A DNA stretch of 64,000 nt from Promethearchaeota archaeon (GTDB lineage: Archaea; Asgardarchaeota; Lokiarchaeia; Sigyniarchaeales; SOKP01), in NCBI GenBank assembly GCA_016839555.1, contig JAEOUA010000012.1, positions 64,001 to 128,000 on the forward strand, written 5' to 3'. The translations under genes and the position numbers were made by a program. Each line of letters begins with the position of its first letter. Position 1 is the first letter of the stretch. Under the pieces are notes generated by a model. The model saw nothing but the letters and a program-made list of their open reading frames with translations, made no database searches and had not been told where the DNA came from. Below are positions 4,783-57,207 of the stretch, piece after piece.

Positions 4783-5823
4783 ATGGAACAACTATTAGAA
4801 AAAATTAATGATTTATTGAGAGAAGCTGGTTTTACCACCTTTACTTTTGAATTTAAATCAAGTAGAGAGAATTATTGCTACGATTTATTAGTTAAAAAAC
4901 CCCATTCCAATCTAGTATTCATAGTAAAAGTATTTGTTAATATTGATAATATTCATGAAAATATAATAACAGGTATTAAAACATTATCAAAATTATTTAA
5001 ATCCAGACCATTATTAATTGGGTTAAGAAATAGATATCAAAAACTTGAAGATAATATGATTTATATACGAGAAGATCTTCCCATTATTTCTTTTAATACC
5101 TTAGAAAATATTCTTAAAAAAAACCTCTTTCCATACATTCTTAACAGAAGAGGCGGTGGTGTAATTTATCTTGATGGTGCCTTAATGAAGAAATTGCGTG
5201 AAGAACATAAAATTTCTAGAAAAGTATTATCAGAAAAGGTAGGAATTACTAAAAGAACTATATGTTCCTACGAAAGCGAAAATATACGCCCCTCGAAAGA
5301 AATTGCAGAAAAAATTGAAAATATCTTGGAATCTAACTTAAATATTTTTAGAAATATTAATATATTCGACTGGCATTTTGAATTTGATATTAAAGAAATG
5401 AGTAAAAAAGAAAATGAAGAATTAAGTGAATTTGAAGAGCATATCCAAAATATAATTGAAGATATAGGAATTACTTCATATTGGTATAAAAAAGAACAAT
5501 TCCCTTTTGAAATGTTAATCTCATCAAAAGATTGGGAAGCGGGAACTGAACAAGAAAACCATTTTTATCCTTTATTTTCTGAAATATCTGAGGTTGAAGA
5601 AAAATTAAAGGAGATAAATCTAAAATATTTAAAGATTTTTACCAAATTCTTCTCAAAAAATGGTTTTATTATTGTAAATAATAATATTAAGATTAATAAG
5701 ATCCTATCAAAAAATCAAATCCCCGTAATTAAGATTAGAAGCCTAGAAAAAATTGATGATGAAGAGGAATTTAAAAAATTATTTTTGAATTTTGAATCGA
5801 ATAAATCAAAAATCTTAAATTAA
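4783..5823 (+). CDS. Conserved archaeal HTH transcriptional regulator (COG1395-like)
   Basis: YDLLVKK...KVFVNIDN N-terminal domain, RGGGVIYLDG, and XRE-type HTH (SRKVLSEKVGITKRTICSYE). Confidence 0.8.
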   Translation: MEQLLEKINDLLREAGFTTFTFEFKSSRENYCYDLLVKKPHSNLVFIVKVFVNIDNIHENIITGIKTLSKLFKSRPLLIGLRNRYQKLEDNMIYIREDLPIISFNTLENILKKNLFPYILNRRGGGVIYLDGALMKKLREEHKISRKVLSEKVGITKRTICSYESENIRPSKEIAEKIENILESNLNIFRNINIFDWHFEFDIKEMSKKENEELSEFEEHIQNIIEDIGITSYWYKKEQFPFEMLISSKDWEAGTEQENHFYPLFSEISEVEEKLKEINLKYLKIFTKFFSKNGFIIVNNNIKINKILSKNQIPVIKIRSLEKIDDEEEFKKLFLNFESNKSKILN

Positions 5824-5912: not shown

Positions 5913-6630
5913 ATGAGAAACTTTTTAATTTGCGGACTCGACGAGGCAGGGAGATGGAAATCGATTTGCTTTGCACCCTAAAGGCCCCGTTTTAGGTCCA
6001 ATGATTTTATGTGGTGTATCTTTCACCAAAAATAAACTACACCATTTAGAAAAAATGGGAGTGAAAGATTCCAAAAAATTAGCCCCTAAAAAAAGAAAAG
6101 AATTAGCAAAATTAATTAAACAAGAGTGTAATTCATATAAAATTCTACAATTGTCCTCCCAAGAAATAGATGAGAGAGTGAGAAAGAAAATTTCCCTTAA
6201 TAGACTTGAAATTATCAAATTTGTTGAGATTTTAAATGAGCTTCAACCAGATATCATATATATCGATGCTGCTGATACAGATGAAAATAGATTTGGAAGA
6301 TCTATTAAAAATCAATTGAATTATATCCCGAAAAGAATTATTTCAAAACATAAAGCCGATGAACTTTTTCCGATTGTTGGAGCAGCTTCCATTATTGCAA
6401 AATGTCATCGCGATATGATTATAAATGAATTAAACAAATACTATATGAACCAAGGATCTATAAACATTGGCTCGGGTTATACATCTGATGAAAAAACAAT
6501 CAATTTTTTGAGATATTGGATAAGAACTTATAAAAAAGCACCTTCATGTGCCAGAAATACCTGGGCAACAATTCGGAAAATCCTTGAGGAGGAATTATAT
6601 AATAAAAAAATTACACAATTTTTTAAATAG
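5913..6630 (+). CDS. rnhB: Ribonuclease HII, two exons (5913-5953 and 5982-6630), 229 aa after splicing
   Basis: ATG 5913 gives MRNFLICGLDEAGR; GPVLGPM resumes in another frame; downstream GVKDSK, YIDAAD, KAD...VGAASIIAK and GSGY motifs. The ORF-track start at 5971 lacks the catalytic D/E residues. Confidence 0.93.
5954..5981 (+). other. Putative 28-nt BHB intron in rnhB mRNA
   Basis: Central helix AGGG(5948-51)/CCCT(5976-79) with 3-nt bulges AGA and AAA. Cutting after the second bulge nucleotide on each side rebuilds GGG AGA GGC CCC (G-R-G-P). Confidence 0.8.
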
Positions 6631-23986: not shown

Positions 23987-24086
23987 CGCAGGTGGAGGGA
24001 TTTGAACCCTCGAGCGCTCTCGCGCACTGGCTTACTTTGCTTGCGCAGCTCTCAAGGCCAGCGTCTTACCACTAGGCTACACCTGC
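23987..24086 (-). tRNA. tRNA-Ser(TGA) with 18-nt intron at 37/38 (24033-24050)
   Basis: Acceptor GCAGGTG/CACCTGC, discriminator G, anticodon stem CTGGC/GCCAG, long variable arm GCGC-GAGA-GCGC. Confidence 0.88.
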
Positions 24087-25175: not shown

Positions 25176-25284
25176 GAGCCCGTAGTCTAGCTGGTTATGA
25201 CGTCGCGTTTATCTTTGAACATATTCGTTCAAAATAGCGAATACACCGCGAAGATCGGGAGTTCGAATCTCTCCGGGCTCACCA
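25176..25284 (+). tRNA. tRNA-Val(TAC) with 32-nt anticodon-loop intron (best fit 33/34; 25210-25241), encoded CCA
   Basis: GAGCCCG/CGGGCTC-A-CCA; TCGCG/CGCGA stem; removing 32 nt gives loop TT-TAC-AC; internal hairpin TTTGAAC/GTTCAAA. The junction can slide by 1-2 nt. Confidence 0.85.
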
Positions 25285-56202: not shown

Positions 56203-57207
56203 ATGAAAGAAATATATCCCGGCATTTTTTTATCACGGGAAAAAGGCAGCCTTGGTGTAATTAAACCTCCCGAAAACATATATATTTTAGCGGGCAGAAA
56301 TGGGCTGATTTTCGATGCTGGCTATGGAAATATTTGGATTATCAAAAAGTTTTTAAAAGAATTTATAAAACTCAAAAAAATCTATGAAAAAAGAAATAAA
56401 TCTTTCAATATTACGAGAATTTTACCAAGTCATGTACATCCAGATCATTTCTCTGGATTGAAAAGATTGAAAAAATATCTGGGAGTACAAATTATTTTAA
56501 CCCAAAAAATGGCAGAAATTATAAAAAATAAAGAAACTTTCATTCAATATTATGAATCTGCTGATCCTCTAAAAGATGAATATCAAATCAAATCTACAAG
56601 AAATCTTCTTAGTAGCTATCTTCGAAAAATTATCTCACGGCTTTTCTTTAAACTAGTTTACGGATTATCATTTATTAAACAACCCGATATAATCATAGAA
56701 GAAAAGTCAAAAATTAGTATCAACGGTGAAGAATGGGAGATCTTTTCTTCTCCGGGGCATTCAAGCGATCATATCTCGCTTTATAATAAAGAAAAAGGTA
56801 TCTTATTTTCTGGAGATAATATTTTAAGAACCATAACAACCTGGTTAGGTCCTCCAAATTCAAATATAGAACATTATATTCGGTCTATAAAAAAGATTCA
56901 AAAGCTTCCCCACCTTAAGTTAATATTACCTGCTCATGGAAGTCCTATTAATGATCCAAAAAAAAGAATTAAAGAAATCTTATCCCATCGAAAAGAAAGA
57001 ACTGCTCAAGTTTTTAAATTAATTCAAAAAAACCCTGAAAAAGGTATCAGCCCAAATAGCATAATTAAAACGCTTTATCCGCAAGACGGAAGCTTTAAAC
57101 ATGGAGTAGCCCGAGGGTGGTGTTCGTTAACCTTAAAAATGTTAGCCTCTCAGAACCTTGTTTATTATAGAAAAAATGATAAAGAAATAAGGTTTTACCC
57201 TTTCTAA
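56203..57207 (+). CDS. Metallo-beta-lactamase-fold hydrolase
   Basis: SHVHPDH, SPGHS.DH, FSGD and PAHG motifs. Confidence 0.9.
   Translation: MKEIYPGIFLSREKGSLGVIKPPENIYILAGRNGLIFDAGYGNIWIIKKFLKEFIKLKKIYEKRNKSFNITRILPSHVHPDHFSGLKRLKKYLGVQIILTQKMAEIIKNKETFIQYYESADPLKDEYQIKSTRNLLSSYLRKIISRLFFKLVYGLSFIKQPDIIIEEKSKISINGEEWEIFSSPGHSSDHISLYNKEKGILFSGDNILRTITTWLGPPNSNIEHYIRSIKKIQKLPHLKLILPAHGSPINDPKKRIKEILSHRKERTAQVFKLIQKNPEKGISPNSIIKTLYPQDGSFKHGVARGWCSLTLKMLASQNLVYYRKNDKEIRFYPF

What the first reader, a model, noticed from the sequence alone, without database searches (positions are those of the whole stretch)
5913..6003. Candidate tRNA-type (BHB) intron inside the catalytic motif of the RNase HII mRNA
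Seen in sequence: ATG 5913 reads MRNFLICGLDEAGR-WKSICFAP and stops at TAA 5979-81, while GPVLGPM continues in a different frame. Exactly 28 extra nt separate the two halves of the invariant RNase HII motif DEAGRGP. The junction folds as bulge-helix-bulge: 4-bp helix AGGG/CCCT, 3-nt bulges AGA and AAA, inner stem TGGAAA/TTTGCA (one G-G mismatch) and an imperfect outer stem (ACGAGGC/GCCCCGT in a one-nt slipped register). Applying the EndA rule (cut after the second bulge nucleotide) removes 5954-5981 and gives a clean 229-aa enzyme. The same rule correctly splices the tRNAs in this window. Established: BHB mRNA introns are known mainly from crenarchaeal cbf5, and eukaryotic XBP1/HAC1 use non-spliceosomal frame-switch splicing. 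Inference: in this apparently Asgard genome, RNase HII production depends on the tRNA splicing endonuclease and RtcB ligase, which could act as a regulatory switch. I do not know of a prior description for rnhB in Asgard archaea. Automated callers would emit a truncated gene lacking the catalytic Asp/Glu.
Basis: partly seen in the sequence, partly recalled or inferred. Interest (0 to 1): 0.95.

Follow-up and report, generated by a model that had tools for sequence, protein, structure and literature searches.

The report
tRNA-type mini-intron splitting RNase HII gene
The only RNase HII gene of this Loki-type Asgard archaeon is broken inside its catalytic motif by a 28-base insert shaped like the introns that archaea cut out of tRNAs. 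The same insert sits at the same spot in 81 related genomes and in many other archaeal groups, so the mRNA almost certainly has to be spliced, which papers document for only one other archaeal protein gene (cbf5).

Summary
ATG 5913 encodes MRNFLICGLDEAGR and then runs into TAA 5979-81. GPVLGPM continues in the +1 frame, and removing 5954-5981 (28 nt) gives a 229-aa RNase HII.

The interpretation as a bulge-helix-bulge (BHB) intron cut by the tRNA-splicing endonuclease EndA is strongly supported by comparison:
- **Distribution.** 81 of 127 rnhB genes in the same family carry a 28-31 nt insert at exactly this site.
- **Structure.** 91.9% of cells pair in the proposed fold, against 29-48% in slid controls, with many two-sided changes.
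- **Junction.** The join after the second bulge base always rebuilds Arg (Lys in one genome), even where the 5' bulge reads AGT.
- **Obligatory removal.** All 77 of the 30-nt inserts contain in-frame stops.
- **Exon constraint.** Synonymous sites in the flanking exons are constrained to pair.
- **Machinery.** The genome has two EndA paralogs and RtcB.
- **Other phyla.** A pattern scan finds the same site occupied in Hadarchaeota, Methanosarcinales, Bathyarchaeia and DPANN groups, while the five bacterial chance hits lack the helix.

No RNA data could be obtained, so splicing itself is inferred. A specific regulatory role is unsupported, because at least five other protein genes of this genome carry similar introns.

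This scan has already noted rnhB introns in at least 46 other genomes. I found no paper describing them.

The parts
5913..5953 (+). Exon 1 of rnhB: ATG, 13 codons (MRNFLICGLDEAG) and the first two bases (AG) of the Arg codon.
   Evidence: The N-terminal motif G-x-DEAG aligns with intronless orthologs.
5954..5981 (+). 28-nt BHB intron. The equivalent choice 5955-5982 gives the same product because 5954 and 5982 are both A.
   Evidence: Absent at exactly this point from 57 intronless rnhB genes compared (43 of them in the same family). Homologous 28-31 nt inserts are present in 81 genomes of the same family.
5982..6630 (+). Exon 2 of rnhB: last base of the Arg codon, 215 codons (GPVLGPM ... FFK) and the stop codon.
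   Evidence: Pfam RNase_HII, E = 3.2e-42, profile positions 9-198. The frame is open to 6630.
5940..5947 (+). Outer (exon-exon) helix, 5' strand: GACGAGGC, the codons for Asp-Glu-Ala.
   Evidence: Pairs with 5984-5991. The outer helix is 96.1% paired across 76 sequences, with G:C to G:U changes. Synonymous sites are constrained only in intron-bearing genes.
5948..5951 (+). Central 4-bp helix, 5' strand: AGGG, made of the wobble base of the Ala codon plus the Gly codon.
   Evidence: Pairs with 5976-5979. Compensatory pair types are UA, AU, CG, UG at the first pair and UG, CG, GC, UA at the last. The same holds in other phyla.
5952..5954 (+). 5' bulge AGA, with the inferred cut after G5953.
   Evidence: The first two bases are AG in 80 of 81 genes (AA in one). 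The third base varies (A, T, G).
5955..5975 (+). Inner hairpin of the intron: TGGAAA / loop TCGATTTGC / TTTGCA, with a G-G mismatch between 5957 and 5973.
   Evidence: In one 85%-identical relative the mismatch is replaced by T:A through changes on both sides. The family consensus is a 9-bp stem with a 5-nt loop.
5976..5979 (+). Central helix, 3' strand: CCCT (intronic).
5980..5982 (+). 3' bulge AAA, with the inferred cut after A5981. A5982 becomes the third base of the Arg codon.
   Evidence: The third bulge base is always A or G, giving AGA or AGG. The first two bases vary (AA, AC, AT, GT, AG).
5983..5991 (+). Outer helix, 3' strand: GGCCCCGTT, the codons for Gly-Pro-Val. The register is slipped by one base.

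Best explanation
Window 5954-5981 is a 28-nt archaeal bulge-helix-bulge (BHB) intron inside the coding sequence of the only RNase HII gene.

Proposed mechanism:
1. The pre-mRNA folds so that the last exon-1 bases (AGGG) pair with the 3' end of the intron (CCCT). Two 3-nt bulges (AGA, AAA) flank this 4-bp helix. An intron hairpin lies on one side and a helix between the Asp-Glu-Ala and Gly-Pro-Val codons lies on the other.
2. The tRNA-splicing endonuclease cuts after the second base of each bulge. In this genome it is a two-paralog, presumably (alpha-beta)2, EndA.
3. RtcB joins AG to A, rebuilding the Arg codon and the frame, so that a 229-aa enzyme with the intact DEAGRGP motif can be made.
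4. Unspliced mRNA gives only a 22-aa peptide.

What is shown: the sequence anatomy; conservation of site and structure with covariation; the coding constraints that fix the cut positions; the need for removal; and the presence of the enzyme genes.

What is inferred: the actual cleavage and ligation, and the circular intron product.

The intron is probably an old, vertically inherited and repeatedly lost passenger at a site whose codons happen to be self-complementary, rather than a dedicated regulator.
For: - **Exact site, many genomes.** Of 127 rnhB genes found in 135 genomes of the same family, 81 carry an insert between DEAG-AG and A/G-GGN: 77 of 30 nt, 2 of 29, 1 of 28 and 1 of 31. The intronless ones read DEAGRGP without a gap.
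- **Removal is obligatory.** Every 30-nt insert has in-frame stops. After excision, 137 of the 138 genes compared give 215-224 residues from the motif to the stop; the one short product (128 residues) comes from a locus that ends at its contig's end.
- **Structure.** On 76 distinct sequences the BHB fold has 91.9% paired cells against 29-48% when partners are slid. There are 76 cells with changes on both sides against 17 in shuffles, and 0 of 500 shuffles reach the covariation score.
- **Cut positions.** Exonic bulge bases are fixed (AG, then A or G), while intronic bulge bases vary. Where the 5' bulge is AGT (G002, G006, G020), only the join after base 2 restores Arg. This is the rule reported for cbf5 (PMC2738675).
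- **Exon synonymous sites pair only when the intron is present.** Glu is GAG in 80/81 against 27/43. Gly is GGA in 0/81 against 18/43. The third base of the Pro codon is C or T in 80/81.
- **The 28-nt form persists.** It is kept in two relatives at 85% protein identity, one of which repairs the G-G mismatch by a double change.
- **Independent phyla.** A DNA pattern scan gives 57 archaeal rnhB hits with 25-43 nt inserts of unrelated sequence and a 3-4/4 paired central helix. The five bacterial chance hits have 0-2/4.
- **Machinery.** There are two EndA paralogs, each with both EndA domains, 32% identical to each other, and RtcB is present.
- **Single copy and conserved synteny.** The arrangement PDDEXK/HTH gene, rnhB, fibrillarin holds with and without the intron.
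Against: - No RNA evidence was available: no RNA run was listed, and no spliced-form protein appeared among the close homologs.
- The fold of this copy is not more stable than shuffled sequence (z = -0.55).
- This copy is the most degenerate of its family: a 6-position inner helix with one mismatch instead of 9 bp.
- The outer helix is slipped by one base, so the motif is a relaxed BHB, not a strict one.
- The subunit composition of EndA is inferred from two paralogs and one pairwise alignment.
Confidence: 0.88

Rival explanations
1. The intron is spliced as described, and the splicing step is also used as a switch: RNase HII is made only when EndA/RtcB activity is available or up-regulated.
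For: - Unspliced mRNA cannot give an active enzyme.
- The eukaryotic HAC1/XBP1 precedent shows that non-spliceosomal splicing can regulate (established knowledge).
- The intron has been kept for a long time in many lineages.
Against: - Nothing links it to a signal.
- Close relatives (G001, G003, G005 in the same genus) have lost it precisely and keep the same gene and neighbours.
- At least five unrelated genes in the same genome (argG, an AMP phosphorylase-like gene, porB, a deacetylase-like gene and a CoA-transferase) carry similar introns. This points to a general intron population rather than a dedicated control of rnhB.
Confidence: 0.1
2. The insert is not removed from the RNA. The ribosome gets past it by a programmed frameshift or by translational bypassing, as in phage T4 gene 60.
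For: In this genome the exon-2 frame is open from 5917, so a +1 shift somewhere in 5917-5979 would give a fused protein.
Against: - 77 of 81 homologous inserts are 30 nt long with in-frame stops, so a frameshift cannot help them.
- A shift here would leave about 9 extra residues inside the invariant DEAGRGP motif.
- Bypassing needs matching take-off and landing codons. Landing on the only AGG (AA-AGG-C) puts the ribosome out of frame, and Gly-to-Gly hopping would delete Arg-Gly.
- In the AGT variants no decoding path gives Arg except the RNA join AG+A.
- Covariation follows BHB geometry.
Confidence: 0.02
3. The gene is a pseudogene, disrupted by a small hairpin-forming insertion (a miniature mobile element or replication slip), and RNase HII is not made in this organism.
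For: - This copy's hairpin is degenerate.
- The genome is only 92% complete, so a second copy could be unassembled.
Against: - Exon 2 is intact over 215 codons in a 30%-GC genome where random frames close quickly.
- The same interruption is kept in 81 genomes, with full-length products after excision except for one locus cut off by its contig's end, and in other phyla.
- Exon 1 stays conserved (ICG-x-DEAG).
- Structure-preserving double changes occur.
- RNase HII was found in 127 of 135 genomes of the family.
Confidence: 0.03
4. The 28 nt are an assembly or sequencing artefact.
For: None found.
Against: Identical sequence occurs in two other assemblies from separate runs, in two relatives and, as homologous inserts, in 80 other genomes.
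Confidence: 0.01

Closest known systems
BHB intron in the cbf5 (aCBF5 pseudouridine synthase) pre-mRNA of Crenarchaeota (Watanabe 2002; Yoshinari 2006; Yokobori 2009, PMC2738675)
   Same: - A short intron inside a coding sequence with a relaxed BHB at the exon-intron borders.
- Cuts between the second and third bulge bases.
- Occurs in organisms with a hetero-oligomeric EndA.
- Patchy distribution, explained by gain and repeated precise loss.
- Gene callers confuse it with a frameshift.
   Different: - A different host gene (rnhB), interrupted inside the catalytic motif only 14 codons from the start.
- A different lineage (Loki-type Asgard), and according to my scan several other phyla at the same site.
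- The outer helix is built from two conserved codon blocks, Asp-Glu-Ala and Gly-Pro-Val.
- cbf5 splicing has cDNA and in vitro proof; this intron has none.
Archaeal tRNA and rRNA BHB introns (EndA cleavage, RtcB ligation)
   Same: The same motif geometry (3-nt bulge, 4-bp helix, 3-nt bulge), the same inferred enzymes, and a similar size to the short tRNA introns. Two intron-bearing tRNA genes lie in this window.
   Different: The substrate is an mRNA. The exon helix is constrained by codons rather than by a tRNA stem, and a splicing error would change the reading frame.
IRE1-dependent HAC1/XBP1 mRNA splicing in eukaryotes
   Same: Protein-only, non-spliceosomal removal of a small intron from an mRNA that changes the reading frame. 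In animals, ligation is by RtcB (established knowledge).
   Different: The nuclease is IRE1, not EndA/TSEN. The recognition element is a pair of 7-nt loops rather than a BHB. That system is a stress-regulated switch, for which there is no evidence here. This intron works in a comparable way but is not a member of that system.
Translational bypassing (phage T4 gene 60) and programmed frameshifting
   Same: An apparently interrupted coding sequence with a hairpin and a stop codon right after the break.
   Different: No matching take-off and landing codons restore the motif, the in-frame stops in the 30-nt forms exclude frameshifting, and covariation fits a BHB.

Membership tests
Archaeal BHB (EndA-type) intron | Two 3-nt bulges on opposite strands, separated by a 4-bp helix, each bulge lying 3' of its helix strand. 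| tested here: met
   5948-51 pairs with 5976-79 (4 Watson-Crick pairs); the bulges are 5952-54 and 5980-82. The central helix is 93.4% paired across 76 sequences, with compensatory pair types, and also in other phyla.
Archaeal BHB (EndA-type) intron | Flanking helices on both sides (the strict hBHBh' form). | tested here: inconclusive
   Both helices exist. However, the inner one has a G-G mismatch in this copy, and the outer one is slipped by one base with an A/C mismatch. This makes it a relaxed form of the kind reported to be cut by (alpha-beta)2 and epsilon2 enzymes (PMC5829648 abstract).
Archaeal BHB (EndA-type) intron | Cleavage between bulge bases 2 and 3 gives a functional product. 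| tested here: met
   The join AG+A/G gives Arg in 80 of 81 genes and Lys in one, and restores the frame in all. Intronic bulge bases vary while exonic ones do not. The rule is as stated for cbf5.
Archaeal BHB (EndA-type) intron | The host encodes a splicing endonuclease able to cut relaxed or non-tRNA BHBs, and an RtcB ligase. | tested here: met
   There are two EndA paralogs of 198 and 208 aa, both with the PF02778 and PF01974 domains, 32% identical. In the pairwise alignment the second has no His where the first has one. RtcB matches at E = 2.8e-169. The heterotetramer assembly is inferred.
Archaeal BHB (EndA-type) intron | Spliced RNA and the excised (circular) intron exist in the cell. 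| not testable with these tools
cbf5-type pre-mRNA intron (BHB intron inside a coding sequence) | The intron interrupts an otherwise intact, conserved, single-copy protein gene, and orthologs lack it at exactly the same point. | tested here: met
Programmed frameshift or translational bypass | The interruption can be decoded by the ribosome to give the conserved protein. | tested here: not met
   There are in-frame stops in 77 inserts, and no codon path yields DEAGRGP, especially in the AGT variants.
Group I, group II or intein-type insertion | Size and conserved catalytic core (hundreds of nt), or an in-frame protein-splicing domain. | tested here: not met
   The insert is 28-31 nt long and contains stop codons. 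There was no Rfam hit at the site.

The most novel reading that the evidence does not exclude
The DEAG-R|GP position of rnhB is a pan-archaeal mRNA intron site. Either it is very old, predating the split of Asgard, Hadarchaeota, Methanosarcinales, Bathyarchaeia and DPANN lineages, or it has been colonised many times because the Asp-Glu-Ala and Gly-Pro-Val codons form a ready-made exon helix. In Asgard archaea it would then be one of dozens of EndA/RtcB-spliced mRNA introns. The closest prokaryotic relatives of eukaryotes would thus routinely express split protein genes through a protein-only splicing pathway.
Probability: 0.3. Interest if true: 0.9.

Novelty: new member of a known kind. Interest (0 to 1): 0.8.

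Why it matters
- **A second host gene.** In the literature I could search, BHB introns inside coding sequences are established for one gene only, cbf5 of Crenarchaeota. rnhB would be a second, much more widespread case, found in the archaeal group nearest to eukaryotes and in several other phyla.
- **Annotation.** Public gene calls for this enzyme lack the catalytic Asp/Glu in dozens of genomes. Comparative and metabolic inferences from such annotations are therefore wrong for this gene, and for other genes split in the same way.
- **Intron evolution.** The system is tractable for study, with one orthologous site, 81 occupied and 43 empty alleles in one family, at least 7 forced gain or loss events, and exon synonymous sites visibly shaped by RNA structure.
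- **Testability.** A single RT-PCR on any enrichment culture of this family would test the splicing claim.

Tried and rejected
- **Spliced-form proteins.** A search for them in the 5.8-billion-protein collection gave only truncated or mis-started calls near 85-100% identity. These come mostly from DNA assemblies and say nothing on splicing.
- **Ab initio genome-wide scan.** I scanned for BHB introns that rejoin open frames. There were 1.57 million loose structural hits, and the open-frame filter gave no excess at the true 3' cut over shifted cuts, because the 30%-GC genome and gene-gene junctions swamp the signal. Only five further cases were accepted, by eye, from restored conserved motifs. 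No count per genome is claimed.
- **Folding energy.** The energy of this copy alone is not significant.
- **tRNA detection.** ARAGORN in its default mode found only the intronless tRNA; Rfam found the two intron-bearing ones.
- **Homing-endonuclease lead.** Here the upstream gene (PDDEXK_19 + HTH_3) is a conserved neighbour with and without the intron, so that reading is rejected for this family.
- **Literature.** Five searches found no report of an rnhB intron, or of BHB mRNA introns in Asgard archaea. Subscription journals are not covered.

Full report
**1. What is in the sequence**

- The + strand from ATG 5913 reads MRNFLICGLDEAGR, continues WKSICFAP and stops at TAA 5979-81.
- The rest of a typical archaeal RNase HII (GPVLGPMILCG ... 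to the stop at 6628-30) lies in the +1 frame. It matches Pfam RNase_HII from profile position 9 onward (E = 3.2e-42).
- Taking out 5954-5981 (28 nt) joins AG to A. This gives Arg and a 229-aa protein with the uninterrupted DEAGRGPVLGPM motif.
  - AGGG (5948-51) pairs with CCCT (5976-79).
  - The bulges are AGA and AAA.
  - The inner hairpin is TGGAAA/TTTGCA with one G-G mismatch.
  - The outer helix lies between GACGAGGC (5940-47) and GCCCCGTT (5984-91), in a register slipped by one base.
- The minimum-energy fold finds the same architecture, but its energy is ordinary for this composition (z = -0.55).
- The genome (3.74 Mb, 12 contigs, 92% complete, 29.6% GC) has one RNase HII match only.
- The organism belongs to the Promethearchaeia (Loki-type Asgard archaea), judging from the titles of the nearest public contigs.

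**2. The insert is real and conserved**

- The same 28 nt occur in two other assemblies made from separate runs.
- Two relatives with 85% identical protein also keep a 28-nt insert. In one of them the G-G mismatch of the inner helix has become T:A through changes on both strands.
- In the same family, 127 of 135 genomes have rnhB, and 81 of them carry an insert at exactly this point: 77 of 30 nt, two of 29, one of 28 (this one) and one of 31.
- All 30-nt inserts contain one or two in-frame stops.
- After excision by the bulge rule, 137 of the 138 genes compared give 215-224 residues from the G-x-DEAG motif to the stop. The remaining product is 128 residues, from a locus that stops at its contig's end.
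- The 43 intronless family members, and all 14 genomes of three sister families, read DEAGRGP with no gap.
- The neighbours are the same with and without the insert: a PDDEXK_19/HTH_3 gene upstream, and fibrillarin and Nop5 downstream. These are therefore orthologous loci.

**3. The structure is under selection**

- I tested an alignment of 76 distinct sequences (A1) against the BHB model of outer helix, central helix, two bulges and a 9-bp inner stem with a 5-nt loop.
- 91.9% of cells are paired. When the 3' partners are slid by 1-3 columns, the figure is 29-48%.
- 76 cells have changes on both sides, against 17.3 in shuffles. The covariation score is 0.345, against 0.06-0.09 for slid controls. 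None of 500 shuffles reaches the observed values.
- The central helix uses the wobble bases of the Ala and Gly codons, and the intron follows them:
  - first pair: U:A, A:U, C:G or U:G;
  - last pair: U:G, C:G, G:C or U:A.
- Synonymous sites in the exons behave differently when the intron is present:

| Site | Intron-bearing | Intronless |
|---|---|---|
| Glu codon GAG | 80/81 | 27/43 |
| First Gly codon GGA | 0/81 | 18/43 |
| Second Gly codon GGC | 55/81 | 5/43 |

- In intron-bearing genes the third base of the Pro codon is C or T in 80/81, so it can pair with G.
- Related genomes are not independent, so no test statistic is attached. The pattern recurs in several separate clades.

**4. The cut positions are fixed by the coding sequence**

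- In the 5' bulge the first two bases are AG (AA in one genome), while the third is A, T or G.
- In the 3' bulge the first two bases vary (AA, AC, AT, GT, AG), while the third is always A or G.
- That is the pattern expected if bases 1-2 of the first bulge and base 3 of the second are exon. [quoted passage not shown]
- In G002, G006 and G020 the unspliced reading would be AGT (Ser). Only the RNA join gives AGA (Arg).
- This also disposes of ribosomal explanations. A frameshift cannot pass the stops of the 30-nt forms, and no take-off and landing pair rebuilds DEAGRGP.

**5. The enzymes are present**

- Two EndA genes (198 and 208 aa, each with the N-terminal and catalytic domains) are 32% identical.
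- In their pairwise alignment the first paralog has a His where the second does not. I read this as a catalytic and a structural subunit, as in the (alpha-beta)2 enzymes. That is an inference from memory of the Tyr-His-Lys triad.
- RtcB is present.

**6. History**

- On a maximum-likelihood tree of the spliced proteins (137 rows), intron presence needs 13 changes, at least 7 of them forced by well-supported branches.
- The nearest relative of this genome's gene (G005, same genus) has no intron.
- Inserts in distant genera share a recognisable sequence (consensus A-ATATAATTC-ANTTC-GAATTATAT-GYYA-AA). One early gain followed by repeated precise losses is therefore the simplest account, as proposed for cbf5. 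The tree is a gene tree built with a quick search, so this remains an inference.

**7. Beyond the family**

- I scanned one genome per prokaryotic species for GACGAGGCNGGNAG, then 25-45 nt, then RGGNCCNGTNNTNGG. This returned 62 loci.
- 57 are archaeal rnhB genes: Promethearchaeota, contigs labelled Hod-, Hermod- and Thorarchaeota, Hadarchaeota, uncultured Methanosarcinales, Bathyarchaeia, Woese-, Micr- and Nanohaloarchaea.
- Their inserts are 25-43 nt long with unrelated hairpins, yet the central helix has 3-4 of 4 pairs, with fully compensatory variants (GGGT/GCCC, TGGC/GCCA, CGGC/GCCG, AGGC/GCCT, GGGG/CCCC, AGGA/TCCT).
- The five bacterial hits are about the number expected by chance. They show 0-2 of 4 pairs and are not rnhB. 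They serve as a built-in negative control.
- The site is thus occupied across much of the Archaea. Whether this reflects age or repeated insertion into a naturally self-complementary codon block cannot be decided here.

**8. Context in this genome**

- My ab initio scan was too noisy to count introns.
- It did bring up five further protein genes in which a 30-31 nt BHB, with a 9-bp stem and a 5-6 nt loop, restores a well-known motif when cut by the same rule:
  - argG (YSGGL|DTS);
  - an AMP/thymidine phosphorylase-like gene (DKHS|TGGVPGNK);
  - porB;
  - a deacetylase-like gene (HTG|DGN);
  - a CoA-transferase.
- The argG case is confirmed by two TGA codons inside an otherwise complete Pfam match.
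- First-reader notes of this scan list the same genes.
- The rnhB intron is therefore one of a population. This weakens the idea of a switch dedicated to RNase HII.

**9. What is known**

- The papers I could search describe BHB introns in coding sequences only for cbf5 of Crenarchaeota, and state that other cases were predicted but not confirmed.
- A 2026 preprint on Asgard tRNA introns does not treat mRNAs.
- No paper links RNase HII to a BHB intron.
- Public gene calls for this and related genes are truncated (209-213 aa, starting after the motif) or start inside the intron in the wrong frame.
- This scan has noted rnhB introns in at least 46 other genomes and BHB mRNA introns in at least 61 genomes. 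Those are AI notes. I re-tested their main claims for this family and across phyla, with my own searches.

**10. Verdict**

The missing piece is direct RNA evidence.
- It is a new member of a known kind (cbf5-type pre-mRNA BHB introns).
- It has unusual breadth, and it shows an instructive coupling between codon choice and RNA structure.

Noticed in passing
G000 contig C12:324996-325025 (- strand), outside the window; locus L213: argG carries a 30-nt BHB insert that splits YSGGL|DTS. The Pfam Arginosuc_synth match is complete but contains 2 TGA codons.
   Followed up: partly
G000 C12:205678-205708 (+); C6:79408-79438 (+); C10 reverse-strand positions 56849-56878; C6 reverse-strand positions 272960-272989: Four more protein genes have 30-31 nt BHB inserts (9-bp stem, 5-6 nt loop) that restore conserved motifs when cut by the same rule: an AMP/thymidine phosphorylase-like gene (DKHS|TGGVPGNK), porB, a deacetylase-like gene (HTG|DGN) and a CoA-transferase. 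They were recognised by eye in a noisy scan.
   Followed up: partly
window 25176-25281 (+) and 23987-24086 (-): Two tRNA genes carry inserts of about 32 and 18 nt in the anticodon arm, and the second has a long variable arm (Rfam). ARAGORN missed both. The hairpin of the first intron (UUUGAAC-AUAUUC-GUUCAAA) resembles those of the mRNA introns.
   Followed up: partly
window 4783-5823 (+): A 346-aa PDDEXK_19 + HTH_3 protein lies directly upstream of rnhB. It is a conserved neighbour across the whole order, with or without the intron, so it is not an intron-associated homing endonuclease.
   Followed up: yes
G012:C43:22091-22621, G017:C21:16967-17488, G020:C51:20448-20975, G071:C18:144667-145191, G145:C1:1537-2061, G062:C9:18861-19388: Some relatives have a second, weaker RNase_HII-domain match (profile positions 1-165) inside longer open frames of 277-587 aa. 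This may be a fused or divergent paralog. The window's genome has none.
   Followed up: no
loci L068-L116 (genus g11 of the family): In many intron-bearing genes the Pro of the GP motif is Ser (GGC TCT GTC, reading DEAGRGSV). The TCT codon still pairs (G:U) in the outer helix.
   Followed up: no
L150, L193, L156: Contigs labelled Hodarchaeota, Thorarchaeota and Hermodarchaeota carry rnhB introns nearly identical to the Loki-family consensus. The record labels may be imprecise or these bins may be mixed, so the spread across Asgard classes should be checked against a species tree.
   Followed up: no
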